From an uncultured delta proteobacterium (GTDB taxonomy: Bacteria > Desulfobacterota > Desulfobaccia > Desulfobaccales > 0-14-0-80-60-11), in assembly GCA_963812015.1 (NCBI GenBank), contig CAWETI010000002.1, positions 992,001-1,056,000 of the forward strand: 64,000 bases of DNA, in the 5' to 3' direction. Numbering within the stretch: the first letter of the stretch is position 1; every line of letters starts with the position of its first letter. Positions 42,001-45,000 of the stretch are shown here, piece by piece. The position numbers were made by a program.

Positions 42001-45000
42001 GTGGGACCCAGGCGTTTTGCGCCGCCATCTGACCCGCCGGTGCGCCGGGCTTAGTGCAGGTCTGAAGCCTGAAGAGTGGTGCGGTCTTTTAGGGGGTAAA
42101 GGAGTTCTTTCATGGCATTTTGGAATGATATGCTTAAACTGAATCCTACCAATATCCTGGTGGGTATCGGGGTGGCAGTGGCAGTACCGGTGGTGCTGCC
42201 GGTGGTGGCCACGGTCGTCCGCCCCCTGGTCAAGGCCGCCATCAAAGGCGGCTTCACCCTGGCGGATACGGTGACGGAATTCGTGGCGGAGGCCGCCGAG
42301 CAAGTCAGCGACCTGTATGCCGAGGCCAAGGCGGAGCACCTGGCCGGTGGCGCTGCCGCGGCCAAGGATCCTCAGGCGTAAAGGTTGACCTAGCATGACC
42401 GATAGTGAGATCAGGATTGTTCATGCCATACCGGGGCGGGTCAGGCTCAAGGTCGCTAGGCTGAGGGAGAACCCACCCCTGGCTCGGGTCATTCAAGAGC
42501 GCCTGGGGGCCGTCCGGGGTATCCAGGGGGTGGAAGCCACTCCCCTGACCGGCAGCGTGCTGGTGCTTTTTGACCCTCAGGCCATCACGTCCCCGGAGTC
42601 CCTGGCGACCCTGTCCGAGACGCTCACCGGCCTTTTTCCGGGACCGGATCTGACCCAATTGGCGGATTTTCTGAGCCGGTCCATGGCGGTGGAAGAGGCC
42701 GGGCTCACCTGGTCCGAATTTGTGGTGGACTTTTTGGTGGACCTCAACGCCCGACTGGGGAGTGCCCTGGGAGGGTTGGCGGATTTCCGGCTGCTGGTCC
42801 CCCTGGCATTGGTGGTTTTTGGACTGCCGAGATTGCTGAACAAGTAAGCGGTAACACCTGGCAAGACCGACTCCGGTTTTCTTCTCCTCCTGCCTGAGAC
42901 TGAACCGGCCCCCGGTTTCACCGCAGTAAGGCCTCCCTTCCCGAATGCGCTTCACCGCCCCCTGGCCCGGGCGCCCGCCGTTACCCCGCGCTTCCCAAGA
43001 CGTGTTCGTTAAGGTACCAGGTGAAGGCCGCCGCGTCCCGGGCGCTTTTGAGGTAAAGGTCCAGGTGGGCCTCGTCCTGGGGGTAGAAGCCCGGATAGCC
43101 GGTGGGGGCGGCGCCGCCGGGGCAGTGGACCAGAGCGGTGAGCCAGATGGCGGGGATGAGGCGCCATTCCGGCTGGTCTTGCAGGGGGCCGGCCACCCGT
43201 TCTTCCACCGTGGCGATGACCTGACGGGAGGCGGTGACGGCCAGGTGCCAGTCAGAGACCCGGGGAATGAGGATATTGCCCCGGGAGTCGCCCCGGCCGG
43301 CGTGTACCAGGGTGACGTCGGGAATCAGGGCCTGGACCGCCACCAGGTCTTGGCCGGAAAAGGGATCAGGTATGACCCGGAAGCGGGGATTGACCGACAG
43401 ATACGCAGAGCCCAACATGCCCCGGACCGGCAGAAACGGCGCCCCCATGCCCCCCGCCTGGAGGGCGCGCAGCAGCGCCCCTCAGGGGTACTCCAGACAG
43501 TGCAGGCGGCCCGCCTGGACCGCGGCCCGAAAGTGGGGGGCCATGCCGTATTCCTCCAGCCCCACCTGGGCGAAGTGGAGGCGGTCGGCCACCCCGGCGC
43601 CCACGGCCAGGTCGACGTTGAGGCCCCCGGTGGGCACGGTGATCAACCCCAGGTTCCGGCGACCCTGGCGGATGAGTTCCCGGATCAAGGCCATGGGGGC
43701 GGCGCGGCTGTGGCCCCCCAGGGCCACCAGGTCCCCGTCCTTTACCAGCGCCGCCGCGGCGGCCAGGTCAGTCCAGACAGGTGGCATCGCGGTCTCCCGC
43801 TATGGGGTGGGCCCCCAGGTAGGCCAGCAGGTTAAGGAGAATGCGGGCGGTGGCCCCCCAGACCACCTCCTGGCCGTTGTGCCAGTAGCAGACCCGGGTG
43901 GTGCGGCCCTGGAAGGTGTAGGGGCCGGAGCGCCAGCGTTCCGGGGGAAAAAACTCCGCCACCGGCCAGGTCAGCAGGCGCTTGACTTCCCGGGGACTGG
44001 GCCGAAAGTCGTAGGGGTGGGGGATGAGTCCCACAAAGGGAGTGATGTGGTAGCCGGTGATGGTGGCCACCGGGGGGAGCGTTCCCAGCACCTCCACCGC
44101 CTCGGGCGCCAGGCCGATCTCCTCAAAGGTTTCCCTCAGGGCCGTGCCCAGGAGGTGGGGGTCCTCCGGGTCCCGGACCCCGCCCGGAAAGGCGATCTGC
44201 CCCCGGTGATCCTTCACCAAAAGGGTGCGCTGGGTGAACAGCACCTGGACCTCCCCCGCCTTGAGGAACAGGGGCACCAGCACTCCGGCGGCAACCAGGT
44301 CCGACTCCGGCCCCGGCGGGGCCGGCTCCTGGGGCAAATGGTCCTTGAGATGGGCCAGGATTGAGGTGACCATAATTCTTTTTACCACGGCCCCGGGGTC
44401 CTGGCAACCGCCAGGCCGAAGCCGGTGGTCGCCGGACCGGCTTAGTGATGAGGACCCGCCGGGGAAACCCGCAGCCCCCGCCGATCCCGCCAGGCCGGCC
44501 GGAAGCTGCCGGGGGTGCAATTGACAAGGCGCAGAATGAAGCTTATGTTGATGTAGGGTTCAGCTCATGGGCTCTGCAGCCCATCAACATGCAGGAATCA
44601 GCTGACAGGGAGATCGCCACCATGAAAGTGCAGGAATATATGCTCAAGGCGTTGAAAGACGCCGTGCAAATGGAGGTCGAAGGCCGCCAGTTTTATCTGG
44701 AAGCGGCCAAGAAAGTGAAGAGTGCCGGGGTCCGGGATATCATGGCGTACCTGGCGGAGTCGGAAAAATACCACATCGAAAAATTCAACGAGGTCTACCG
44801 GAGCCTGGAAAAGGACCCGTCCTGGACCGAAACCATAGCGGCCTTTAAGCCCCCCCAGCACGAGCCTTATGTCTGCGTCATGGCCATGACCAAAGATGAA
44901 CAGGGCGCCGGCGGCCAGGATGACCTTCAGGCCCTCAAGACCGGCATCAAGATGGAGGAGTGCTCCATCGACTACTACACCAAACTGGCCAAGGAAGCCA

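What a model noticed while it worked through the whole genome (the two positions that open the first line are those of the whole stretch)
42981..43787. New selenoprotein family: CoA-transferase subunit-A-like protein with CxEYPU motif
The two gene calls g00914 and g00913 (minus strand) are one 268-aa gene interrupted by an in-frame TGA (C2:1035482-1035484) that is read as selenocysteine (U102, motif C-x-E-Y-P-U-G). The protein is a family-I CoA-transferase alpha-subunit-like protein (Pfam CoA_trans) that is translationally coupled to a NudL-like CoA pyrophosphatase and has no adjacent beta subunit; such a selenoprotein family is not in the 2026 inventory of 119 prokaryotic selenoprotein families.
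Evidence so far: Reading TGA through gives one continuous 268-aa CoA_trans-like protein. In 34 of 34 orthologues (71-100% identity, 6 genera of Desulfobaccales; 83 genomes searched) the match holds exactly one in-frame TGA, with conservation on both sides. In a search of 1.84 billion representatives all close relatives (>=58% id) are fragments that start or stop at the TGA (121-153-aa pieces starting at residues 106-148, an 89-aa piece ending at 101), while the nearest full-length homologues (39-45% id) carry Cys at the aligned position: 30 of 120 full-length homologues aligned, incl. the top 5 = classic Sec/Cys pair. A conserved 7-bp G+C hairpin with AGGC loop starts 15 nt after the UGA (SECIS-like; RNAalif [...]
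(Added by a program. Inside this text positions count along the whole contig: contig position 992,001 is position 1 of the stretch shown here. "Call 12" and the like, gene names such as g00115 and contig names such as C1 are that model's own, and its searches are not shown. The text may have been shortened before it was handed on; [...] marks where a part breaks off. The agent that wrote the report below was given it as the finding of a first reader that could run no searches.)

Follow-up and report, generated by a model that had tools for sequence, protein, structure and literature searches.

The report
Selenocysteine enzyme with CoA-transferase fold
The apparent stop codon splitting this gene almost certainly encodes selenocysteine at the likely catalytic spot of a two-subunit enzyme that looks like a CoA-transferase but probably is not one, a protein type absent from the selenoprotein catalogues I could read.

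Summary
Confirmed. Window 42981-43787 (-) is one 268-codon frame with a single TGA (43482-43484, codon 102). The genome has tRNA-Sec, SelA, SelB and SelD. All 34 of 34 orthologues in 83 genomes of the order keep the TGA. Wider sampling adds 20 TGA forms in a 401-genome phylum sample, and 20 TGA versus 15 Cys forms in metagenomes. Sec and Cys swapped at least 4 times.

A hairpin with an invariant GGC loop lies 15 nt after the UGA. It shows covariation (5 of 7 pairs) and is present in 20 of 20 TGA loci and 0 of 15 Cys loci.

Sec102 aligns with the Glu of IpdA that is replaced by Ala in PDB 6coj. The best structural relatives are AibA/AibB.

The beta partner lies 540 kb away. It co-occurs with the alpha gene (29 both, 47 neither, 7 discordant). 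It lacks the catalytic Glu of true CoA-transferases, so the enzyme is probably not a transferase.

- The nudL neighbour is a core gene (80 of 83 genomes), so that link is positional.
- Cys97 of the "CxEYPU" motif is not conserved.
- The family reaches far beyond this order.

This scan's earlier notes report the same kind of protein on other genomes. The substrate is unknown.

The parts
42981..43787 (-). Selenoprotein gene: 268-aa alpha-type subunit of the family-I CoA-transferase fold (AibA/IpdA-like), Sec at residue 102
   Evidence: One frame if TGA is read as U. Pfam CoA_trans 77.7 bits. Best PDB match 5mzw_A at E 1.5e-33. 34 of 34 orthologues keep one TGA.
43482..43484 (-). UGA selenocysteine codon (codon 102)
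   Evidence: Same codon in 30 of 30 orthologue loci and in 20 of 20 TGA forms from other families of the phylum. TGC/TGT at the same site in 15 of 35 metagenome loci. Codons 103-107 show 13 synonymous versus 1 non-synonymous alternative codons, so the stretch after the UGA is translated.
43449..43466 (-). SECIS-like hairpin GCCCUCC-AGGC-GGGGGGC, starting 15 nt after the UGA (codons 108-113)
   Evidence: 17 of 18 nt invariant in 30 loci; the one variable base is a single C>U that keeps a G-U pair. The run of codons with no synonymous variation is matched by 339 of 100000 shuffles. The homologous hairpin in 44 Sec forms has 92% of cells paired, 5 of 7 pairs with double changes, and 0 of 500 shuffles reach its score.
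43768..44373 (-). nudL-like CoA pyrophosphatase gene, whose stop overlaps the selenoprotein start by 20 nt (43768-43787)
   Evidence: NCBIfam PRK10707 135.7 bits against cut-off 134; Pfam NUDIX. Adjacent in 31 of 31 Sec-orthologue loci. Present in 80 of 83 genomes of the order whether or not the alpha gene is there.

Best explanation
Window 42981-43787 (-) is an intact selenoprotein gene. SelB with tRNA-Sec reads UGA codon 102 as selenocysteine, directed by a hairpin that starts 15 nt downstream and lies inside the coding sequence.

The product is the alpha-type subunit of a two-subunit enzyme of the family-I CoA-transferase fold. Its nearest relatives are AibA/AibB and IpdA/IpdB. In this lineage the beta subunit is encoded about 540 kb away, at contig C2:495566-496297.

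The beta subunit lacks the glutamate that true CoA-transferases use. Sec102 sits at the alpha-subunit position that carries Glu in IpdA. The enzyme is therefore most likely not a CoA-transferase. It more likely transforms an acyl-CoA at the alpha/beta interface, with the selenol as the catalytic nucleophile or proton-transfer group.

Shown here: the recoding signals, the conservation, the Sec/Cys exchange, the partner's co-occurrence and the partner's missing Glu. Inferred: selenium incorporation, heteromer formation, the catalytic role of Sec102 and the acyl-CoA substrate. The substrate and the reaction are unknown.
For: Sec machinery in the genome:
- tRNA-Sec on contig C4.
- selB 368.5 bits, selA 608.5 bits and selD 372.7 bits, selD itself with one TGA.

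Conservation of the TGA:
- 34 of 34 orthologues in 83 genomes keep one TGA, at the same codon in 30 of 30 loci.
- Met114, the start of the downstream gene call, is Leu or Lys in 3 of 30 loci.
- Codons 103-107 change synonymously, 13 alternative codons against 1 non-synonymous.

Sec/Cys pairing:
- Cys in the 5 best full-length homologues and in 34 of 139 hits that cover the site.
- In metagenome loci, 20 have TGA and 15 have TGC/TGT at the same site.
- The tree needs at least 4 Sec/Cys changes.

Hairpin:
- Present in 20 of 20 TGA loci and 0 of 15 Cys loci; also absent in Cys forms L050, L053 and L061.
- Covariation over 44 Sec forms: 92% of cells paired against 32-45% when the partner is slid, and 5 of 7 pairs with changes on both sides.
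- Loop GGC invariant in all 44.

Spread:
- 20 further TGA forms in 20 of 401 sampled genomes of the phylum, all at residue 102, all with the hairpin sequence and an adjacent beta gene.

Active-site argument:
- U102 aligns with Glu in 6con_A and 6co6_A. It aligns with the only visible difference (Ala) in 6coj_A.
- Adjacent beta genes carry the FEAGG/YEAGS Glu motif in 64 of 64 pairs where alpha-102 is N, H or L. The Glu is missing where alpha-102 is C or E.
- It is missing in 36 of 36 beta genes that partner Sec/Cys alphas.

Partner:
- P0153 is 39-49% identical to the beta genes that directly follow Sec/Cys alphas and 46% to the beta gene of the closest Cys form, L050.
- Co-occurrence in the order: both 29, alpha only 5, beta only 2, neither 47.

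Expression hint:
- Metatranscriptome contigs of 4 studies cover 27-29 of 30 bins, and one record bridges the TGA.
Against: - No selenium-labelling, proteomic or ribosome data exist. The RNA evidence is contigs from metatranscriptome libraries, which can contain DNA and show neither strand nor level.
- The hairpin's folding energy is no better than that of shuffled sequence in this G+C-rich gene (z -0.25, 74 of 200 shuffles fold as well).
- No Rfam family matches.
- Within this order the core hairpin shows no compensatory change; 6 of 7 pairs never vary.
- The catalytic role of IpdA's Glu is recalled from Crowe et al. 2018, which I could not read. What the tools show is only the alignment and the E-to-A chain variant.
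- Alpha and beta are never adjacent in this order, and 7 of 83 genomes are discordant.
- Gene neighbours of the Sec pairs elsewhere are heterogeneous and name no pathway.
- A selenol (low pKa, from general knowledge) is an unusual general acid, which weakens a simple AibB-Cys56-like role.
Confidence: 0.75

Rival explanations
1. Redox reading. Sec102 acts on the thiol of CoA, not on an acyl group. The alpha/beta protein binds CoA and uses the selenol to make or break CoA mixed disulfides or persulfides. That would make it a 'CoA-redoxin' or CoA S-transferase, possibly working together with the CoA pyrophosphatase encoded just upstream.
For: - Most catalogued prokaryotic selenoproteins are thiol-type redox proteins (text and Table 1 of PMC13188914).
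- The fold binds CoA (Pfam CoA_trans).
- In one clade of Sec alpha-beta pairs the neighbours are a CMD/AhpD-family gene (L171, L178, L181) and a pyridine-nucleotide-disulfide oxidoreductase (L178, L181).
- In this order the gene follows nudL and faces a rubrerythrin-like gene.
- Enzymes of CoAlation and deCoAlation are described as still unidentified in PMC10950700 (passages read).
Against: - No second conserved Cys exists. Cys97 is lost in 3 of 30 orthologues and absent in other lineages. Cys102 is the only invariant Cys in 30 Cys/Sec alphas, and there is no conserved Cys in 36 betas.
- nudL is a core gene present in 80 of 83 genomes regardless of the alpha gene.
- The redox-type neighbours occur in one clade only; other neighbours are acyl-CoA enzymes.
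- The many homologues with Glu at the site (55 of 139) argue for acid/base or acyl chemistry.
Confidence: 0.12
2. A true family-I CoA-transferase in which Sec102 replaces the missing beta-subunit glutamate as the group that carries the acyl and CoA intermediates.
For: - Pfam CoA_trans matches on both subunits.
- Family III CoA-transferase, acyl-CoA synthetase and acyl-CoA dehydrogenase genes lie next to some Sec/Cys pairs.
- Alpha-102 and the beta Glu are mutually exclusive, as expected if one replaces the other.
Against: - The ping-pong mechanism of these enzymes needs a carboxylate to form the anhydride and the enzyme-CoA thioester (established mechanism, from general knowledge). A selenol cannot form the equivalent CoA adduct by the same chemistry.
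- NCBIfam transferase models score far below their cut-offs (37 against 128.5; 22.4 against 315).
- The nearest characterised relatives, AibAB and IpdAB, are a decarboxylase and a hydrolase (PMC7756340 passages; PMC6678751 passage).
Confidence: 0.08
3. The TGA is a real stop. The locus is either a pseudogene or two separate genes (101 aa and 155 aa), as the automatic gene calls have it, and the downstream hairpin has no role in decoding.
For: - Table 11 gives two ORFs.
- Public protein sets hold only fragments of the close relatives.
- The hairpin's energy is not exceptional, and there is no Rfam hit.
Against: - The TGA is kept in 34 of 34 orthologues and in 40 more distant loci, with purifying selection on both sides.
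- The 11 codons between the TGA and the next ATG are conserved as protein, with synonymous changes.
- That ATG is missing in 3 of 30 loci.
- Cys codons replace the TGA at least 4 times.
- The hairpin covaries and tracks the TGA.
- The Sec machinery is complete.
Confidence: 0.04

Closest known systems
AibA/AibB, 3-methylglutaconyl-CoA decarboxylase of Myxococcus xanthus (PDB 5mzw-5n03)
   Same: Best solved relative of both subunits: alpha E 1.5e-33 over residues 5-250, beta about 1e-20. It is a two-subunit enzyme of the CoA-transferase fold that is not a transferase and lacks the beta Glu (PMC7756340 passages). In a quick tree of 120 representatives, AibA-like G/V/A-type sequences are the neighbours of the Sec/Cys clade.
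   Different: AibB carries the catalytic thiol (Cys56) on the beta subunit, and AibA has Gly at the site aligned with Sec102. Here the beta subunit has Val at the Cys56 position, and the selenol is on alpha. No aib-type operon is seen. Identity is only moderate.
IpdA/IpdB, steroid ring-opening hydrolase of Mycobacterium tuberculosis and Rhodococcus jostii (PDB 6con, 6co6, 6co9, 6coj)
   Same: Same fold and two-subunit build. Sec102 aligns exactly with the alpha-subunit Glu that differs (Ala) in the variant chain 6coj_A. That this Glu is catalytic and that IpdB lacks the beta Glu is recalled from Crowe et al. 2018, which I did not read. The retro-Claisen hydrolase activity is cited in PMC6678751 (passage).
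   Different: The site holds Sec or Cys and not Glu. Similarity is lower (E 1e-17 to 1e-18). There is no steroid-catabolism context. The substrate is unknown.
Glutaconate CoA-transferase GctAB and other family-I CoA-transferases (PDB 1poi; AtoDA, ScoAB)
   Same: Pfam CoA_trans on both subunits. Alpha-beta gene pairs are the rule in homologues.
   Different: The catalytic beta Glu (FEAGG-type motif) is missing here. GctA has Gln at the site aligned with Sec102. The NCBIfam transferase cut-offs are not reached.
Bacterial selenoprotein genes with an in-frame UGA, a SelB-type hairpin just downstream, and Cys-containing homologues (for example formate dehydrogenase FdhA and SelD, as catalogued in PMC13188914)
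   Same: UGA inside the coding region, a stem-loop about 15 nt downstream with G residues in the loop, a complete sel gene set, and Cys orthologues.
   Different: The protein family is not among the 119 listed families and subfamilies. No NCBIfam selenoprotein model matches. The fold is not a thioredoxin-like or metal-cofactor redox fold.

Membership tests
SelB/SECIS-dependent bacterial selenoprotein gene | In-frame UGA conserved among orthologues, with coding conservation on both sides | tested here: met
   34 of 34 orthologues; same codon in 30 of 30 loci; 13 synonymous against 1 non-synonymous alternative codons in codons 103-107.
SelB/SECIS-dependent bacterial selenoprotein gene | Genome encodes tRNA-Sec, SelA, SelB and SelD | tested here: met
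   the three proteins score above their NCBIfam cut-offs.
SelB/SECIS-dependent bacterial selenoprotein gene | Stem-loop shortly downstream of the UGA, conserved as a structure | tested here: met
   The hairpin starts 15 nt after the UGA. Over 44 Sec forms, 92% of cells are paired, 5 of 7 pairs have changes on both sides, and 0 of 500 shuffles reach the score. It is present in 20 of 20 TGA loci and 0 of 15 Cys loci. Against: no Rfam hit and an unexceptional folding energy.
SelB/SECIS-dependent bacterial selenoprotein gene | Homologues with Cys at the Sec position | tested here: met
   at least 4 Sec/Cys changes on the tree.
SelB/SECIS-dependent bacterial selenoprotein gene | Selenium shown in the protein | not testable with these tools
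   Needs 75Se labelling or mass spectrometry.
Family-I CoA-transferase (enzyme activity) | Sequence membership in Pfam CoA_trans | tested here: met
   Alpha 77.7 bits and beta 49.2 bits against a cut-off of 23.
Family-I CoA-transferase (enzyme activity) | Catalytic glutamate in the beta subunit | tested here: not met
   P0153 has VFVAGS where the beta partners of the N/H/L-type alphas have FEAGG/YEAGS. 0 of 36 betas that partner Sec/Cys alphas have the Glu.
Family-I CoA-transferase (enzyme activity) | Reaches a curated equivalog or subfamily model of a known transferase | tested here: not met
   TIGR02429 37 bits against 128.5; NF007394 22.4 bits against 315.
AibA/AibB decarboxylase | Cys56 on the beta subunit (in place of the Gct Glu) | tested here: not met
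   Val53 of P0153 aligns with that position.
AibA/AibB decarboxylase | Closest solved relative by sequence, both subunits | tested here: met
   5mzw_A at E 1.5e-33; 5mzw_D at E 9.9e-21.
IpdA/IpdB hydrolase | Glu at the alpha-subunit site (Glu105 in the paper's numbering, recalled) | tested here: not met
   The aligned residue is Sec102. 6co6_A has Glu and 6coj_A has Ala there.
IpdA/IpdB hydrolase | Steroid-catabolism gene context | tested here: not met
   The window neighbours are nudL, a rubrerythrin-like gene, an MBL-fold gene and HMA_2/DUF5132 genes. An MBL-fold gene and recQ flank the beta gene. No steroid-catabolism gene is among them; no wider search was made.
NudL CoA pyrophosphatase (the upstream gene) | Reaches the NCBIfam equivalog PRK10707 | tested here: met
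   135.7 bits against a cut-off of 134; only just above it.

The most novel reading that the evidence does not exclude
The Sec/Cys-type alpha-beta proteins are a widespread, uncharacterised enzyme class in which a selenol (or thiol) on the alpha subunit has taken over the catalytic role of the beta-subunit glutamate. This would convert the CoA-transferase scaffold to covalent selenoester or Se-S chemistry on CoA compounds. One possibility is a thiolase-like C-C cleavage through an acyl-selenoenzyme. Another is the long-sought enzyme that attaches CoA to, or removes it from, thiols. It would be the first selenoenzyme of acyl-CoA or CoA-thiol metabolism built on this fold.
Probability: 0.3. Interest if true: 0.9.

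Novelty: new variant of a known kind. Interest (0 to 1): 0.75.

Why it matters
- **For annotation.** It adds a protein family to the prokaryotic selenoproteome that automatic annotation systematically splits. In a library of 1.84 billion representatives, only fragments of the close relatives are found.
- **For selenium biochemistry.** It places selenocysteine in a CoA-binding, non-thioredoxin fold, at a position that homologues fill with a glutamate. That makes it a natural test case for what a selenol can do in acyl-CoA chemistry.
- **As a lead for function.** The alpha-102 residue and the beta glutamate exclude each other. This gives a simple sequence rule for sorting the large 'CoA-transferase subunit A/B' annotation into true transferases and non-transferases of the AibAB/IpdAB kind.
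- **For the bench.** Natural Sec and Cys versions exist, and the Cys forms can be expressed directly.
- **For this lineage.** The split alpha and beta genes, and their joint loss in related species, offer a small natural experiment on co-dependence.

Tried and rejected
I did not resend it or fold it elsewhere, so heteromer formation is untested.
- **The search for related loci** with two alignments failed for lack of a conserved stretch. Single proteins were used afterwards.
- **Crowe et al. 2018 on IpdAB** is not held, by DOI or by PMC id.
- **Rfam** gave nothing on 43350-43550, even at E up to 10.
- **Folding energy** of the hairpin region is not better than shuffles, so stability alone was dropped as an argument.
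- **Covariation within this order alone** is nil.
- **NudL as a functional partner** was rejected as unsupported. It is a core gene in 80 of 83 genomes, and it is absent next to all other Sec/Cys forms examined.
- **A CxxxxU redox pair with Cys97** was rejected, because Cys97 is not conserved.
- **PMC7176365**, which holds 'selenocysteine' and 'CoA transferase', concerns formate dehydrogenases only.
- **Gene neighbourhoods** of 30 Sec/Cys loci gave no consistent pathway.
- **Search by sequence in this scan's earlier notes** found nothing.
- **Metatranscriptome contigs:** parts without cover, and depth figures, were not interpreted.
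Full report
**1. The observation**

On the minus strand of the window, table 11 gives two ORFs: 43482-43787 (101 aa) and 42981-43448 (155 aa). 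Reading TGA as U joins them into one 268-aa frame, 42981-43787. It has a single odd codon, U102, at window 43482-43484, in the motif LHCLEYPUGALLRALQAGG.

The joined protein matches Pfam CoA_trans over residues 8-198 (77.7 bits, cut-off 23).

The gene upstream, 43768-44373 (-), overlaps the start codon by 20 nt. It reaches the NCBIfam equivalog for CoA pyrophosphatase, though only just (135.7 bits against 134).

**2. Is the UGA decoded as selenocysteine?**

*The machinery is complete.* The genome has a tRNA-Sec gene, selB, selA and selD. selD itself carries one in-frame TGA.

*The TGA is conserved in the order.*
- Among 83 genomes of the order, 34 matches at 71-100% identity were found, and 34 of 34 contain exactly one TGA.
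- In the 30 loci that were fetched, the TGA is at the same codon.
- The 11 codons between the TGA and the next ATG are conserved as protein. Codons 103-107 show 13 synonymous alternative codons and 1 non-synonymous one.
- That ATG is CTG or AAG in 3 of 30 loci.
- The downstream part therefore cannot be a separate gene, and the stretch right after the UGA is translated.

*The public protein sets agree.* In the library of 1.84 billion representatives, all close relatives are fragments that break at this site. The best full-length relatives (39-45% identity) have Cys there.

**3. Wider sampling strengthens the case**

*A second lineage in metagenomes.*
- Two fragments in the representative search (P0122, P0144) began just after the site.
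- Using P0122 to scan metagenome contigs gave 35 loci with the motif DST[U/C]P[AV]MLMALQAGASG. Twenty have TGA and fifteen have TGC or TGT.
- On a maximum-likelihood tree of 30 rows (28 of these 35 loci, 7 short ones left out, plus this window's protein and L050), with the site masked, the Sec/Cys label needs at least 4 changes.

*More Sec forms in the phylum.*
- A sample of 401 genomes of the phylum gave 20 further matches with exactly one TGA. They lie in 20 genomes of 10 families, at 34-50% identity.
- In all 20 the TGA aligns with residue 102.
- The Sec form is therefore widespread, and this order holds only one branch of it.

**4. The recoding hairpin**

*Within the order.*
- Fifteen nucleotides after the UGA lies GCCCUCC-AGGC-GGGGGGC (window 43449-43466).
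- Within the order, 17 of its 18 nt never vary. The exception is a single C>U in one locus, which keeps a G-U pair.
- That gives no covariation within the order. It is, however, a striking lack of synonymous change. Codons 108-113 have codon diversity 0.07, 0, 0, 0, 0, 0, against a mean of 0.31 over 104 columns with an invariant residue.
- Only 339 of 100000 shuffles give a run that low.

*Across lineages the structure shows itself.*
- In an alignment of 44 Sec forms, the helix has 92% of cells paired, against 32-45% when the 3' partner is slid.
- Five of 7 pairs have changes on both sides, and the covariation score is 0.364 against 0.153 (0 of 500 shuffles reach it). The loop GGC is invariant.

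*The hairpin follows the codon.*
- In the metagenome lineage all 20 TGA loci have CUCCAG-GC-CUGGAG, with the Ala and Gly codons held at GCU GGA (GGG in three loci).
- None of the 15 Cys loci has it; they use GCG/GCC and GGC/GGG/GGU/GGA at those codons.
- The Cys forms nearest to this window's gene also lack it.

*Points against.* No Rfam family matches. The folding energy is ordinary for such G+C-rich sequence (z -0.25).

**5. What the protein is**

*Relatives with solved structures.*
- The best is 5mzw_A (E 1.5e-33), labelled glutaconate CoA-transferase family subunit A.
- The 5mzx and 5mzz entries of the same protein are AibA/AibB, the 3-methylglutaconyl-CoA decarboxylase of Myxococcus xanthus. 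There a Cys56 on the beta subunit replaces the catalytic Glu of glutaconate CoA-transferase (passages of PMC7756340).
- Next come 6con, 6co6 and 6coj. From memory these are IpdAB, the steroid ring-opening hydrolase. A review passage gives its retro-Claisen hydrolase activity (PMC6678751).

*The residue aligned with Sec102.*
- It is Gly in AibA and Gln in GctA.
- It is Glu in 6con_A and 6co6_A, and Ala in 6coj_A. That is the only difference visible between the two Rhodococcus chains.
- I recall that this is the E105A variant of the catalytic base of IpdA. I could not read the paper, so that step is recalled and not shown.

**6. The partner and the missing glutamate**

*Only one beta candidate exists.*
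- The genome holds only one other CoA_trans gene, a 243-aa beta-type protein at C2:495566-496297, about 540 kb away.
- Its best solved relative is AibB (about 1e-20). It has Val where AibB has Cys56 and where transferases have Glu.

*Three lines tie it to the selenoprotein.*
- **Adjacency elsewhere.** In every other Sec or Cys lineage examined, a gene 38-49% identical to it directly follows the alpha gene. This holds for 27 of 27 metagenome loci with room, for 21 of 21 phylum loci, and for the Nitrospinota Cys form L050.
- **Co-occurrence.** Among the 83 genomes of the order, the two genes come and go together: both 29, alpha only 5, beta only 2, neither 47. The seven discordant genomes have completeness estimates of 56-98% and 30-460 contigs. 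Two further genomes hold only alpha fragments.
- **Joint loss.** Within the window's own genus the two genes are missing together from six species. One of these, G013, keeps a 41-nt relic of the alpha gene behind nudL.

Related genomes are not independent, so I attach no statistic to these counts.

*The catalytic residue appears to sit on one subunit or the other.*
- In 64 of 64 alpha-beta pairs where alpha-102 is N, H or L, the beta gene has the FEAGG/YEAGS Glu motif.
- The Glu is absent in the pairs where alpha-102 is C or E (one each).
- It is absent in 36 of 36 beta genes that partner Sec/Cys alphas.
- No Cys is conserved in those betas, and Cys102 is the only invariant Cys among 30 Cys/Sec alphas.

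**7. Most likely mechanism**

*Shown:* a UGA with all the marks of Sec decoding; an alpha-type subunit with a co-occurring beta that lacks Glu; and Sec at a position that exchanges with Cys among close relatives and is Glu in more distant homologues.

*Inferred:*
- The two subunits form an AibAB/IpdAB-like heteromer.
- Its active site lies at the subunit interface around the thioester end of an acyl-CoA.
- The selenol is the catalytic group, acting either as a nucleophile (through an acyl-selenoester or a thiolase-like retro-Claisen step) or as a proton shuttle.
- It is not a CoA-transferase in the classical sense.

*Context elsewhere.* The neighbours of Sec/Cys pairs are mostly acyl-CoA enzymes:
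- family III CoA-transferases in 4 of 9 metagenome loci;
- acyl-CoA dehydrogenases, an ADP-forming acyl-CoA synthetase and an AMP-binding ligase;
- a MaoC dehydratase in L050.

They are too varied to name a pathway.

*A redox role on the CoA thiol* is the main rival. One clade has CMD/AhpD-family and pyridine-nucleotide-disulfide oxidoreductase neighbours. The enzymes of protein CoAlation are said to be unidentified (PMC10950700 passages).

**8. The nudL link**

The overlap of nudL with the selenoprotein gene is conserved: 31 of 31 loci are adjacent, and 30 of them overlap by about 17 nt.

But nudL is a single-copy gene in 80 of 83 genomes of the order, including those without the alpha gene. 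Those genomes keep the same nudL-rubrerythrin synteny. No other Sec/Cys lineage has nudL nearby.

The selenoprotein gene therefore sits behind a housekeeping gene. Co-translation is likely; a shared function is not shown.

**9. Expression**

Contigs from four wetland metatranscriptome studies, 85% or more alike, cover 27-29 of 30 bins across both halves of the gene and nudL. Some are nearly identical to the window. One record spans the TGA with more than 50 nt on each side.

These are contigs from RNA libraries. They show presence only, not strand, level or decoding.

**10. Novelty**

*What I read.*
- Table 1 of the May 2026 review, with 119 families and subfamilies, read in full: it lists no CoA_trans protein (PMC13188914).
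- The main texts of the BSepDB paper and the deep-Sep paper contain neither 'CoA' nor 'transferase'. I did not open their supplementary tables.
- Three full-text searches combining selenoprotein terms with CoA-transferase terms found no such report.
- NCBIfam release 20 has no dedicated model.

*Earlier notes of this scan.* They describe the same kind of protein on four other genomes, with IpdAB named as closest known in three of them. They are AI notes, not independent evidence. The search by sequence shows that they are not this lineage.

*New in this window:* a branch in which the alpha and beta genes are separated and the alpha gene is fused into the nudL transcription unit.

**11. Verdict**

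This is a genuine and so far uncatalogued selenoprotein; my odds that the UGA encodes Sec are about 0.93. It belongs to a wide Sec/Cys-type branch of AibAB/IpdAB-like enzymes, with the selenium at the probable catalytic site. The reaction is unknown.

Noticed in passing
contig C2:1058596-1059513 (about 2.6 kb beyond the window's end): The selD gene of this genome itself carries one in-frame TGA, so it is a selenoprotein too.
   Followed up: no
L158 (G013:C21) 2107-2169: A same-genus species without the selenoprotein keeps a 41-nt relic (90% identical) of the gene's 3' part directly behind nudL. This indicates deletion and not absence from the start. The beta gene is also missing from that genome.
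   Followed up: partly
G041:C3:525775-526496: In one genome the beta gene matches in two pieces with 1 and 2 TGA codons inside, so it is a possible frameshift or decay, while its alpha gene looks intact.
   Followed up: no
contig C2:494459-495388 (L002 214-1143): An MBL-fold metallo-hydrolase gene (309 aa, no specific family) lies directly upstream of the beta gene on the same strand in 12 of 12 loci, with recQ downstream in 7 of them. This may be mere local synteny.
   Followed up: partly
window 42112-42847 (+): A DUF5132 protein (89 aa) and an HMA_2 domain protein (150 aa) form a small pair downstream of the selenoprotein gene. The pair is also present in L010 and, without the selenoprotein, in G010.
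   Followed up: no
window 44445-45146 (+): A rubrerythrin-like gene with weak EncB/ferritin-like hits is transcribed divergently from nudL and is conserved there in most related loci.
   Followed up: no
L171, L178, L181 (phylum relatives): In one clade with the motif MKDxTU-GVM, the Sec alpha-beta pair is flanked by a CMD/AhpD-family gene (all three loci) and a pyridine-nucleotide-disulfide oxidoreductase fragment (L178 and L181). This is a possible redox context.
   Followed up: partly
L131, L132, L141 and L123 (metagenome loci): Family III CoA-transferase genes lie next to the Sec alpha-beta pair. In three loci they come with a thiamine-diphosphate enzyme of the oxalyl-CoA decarboxylase type. 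In L123 the transferase is a double-length 844-aa protein on the same strand.
   Followed up: no
L092, L103, L112-L115, L119, L122 (genome-contig loci): Several Bacillota and Pelotomaculum contigs hold two different alpha genes of the ordinary Asn-102 type close together, most with a beta gene carrying the Glu beside each. This shows how often this fold is duplicated.
   Followed up: no
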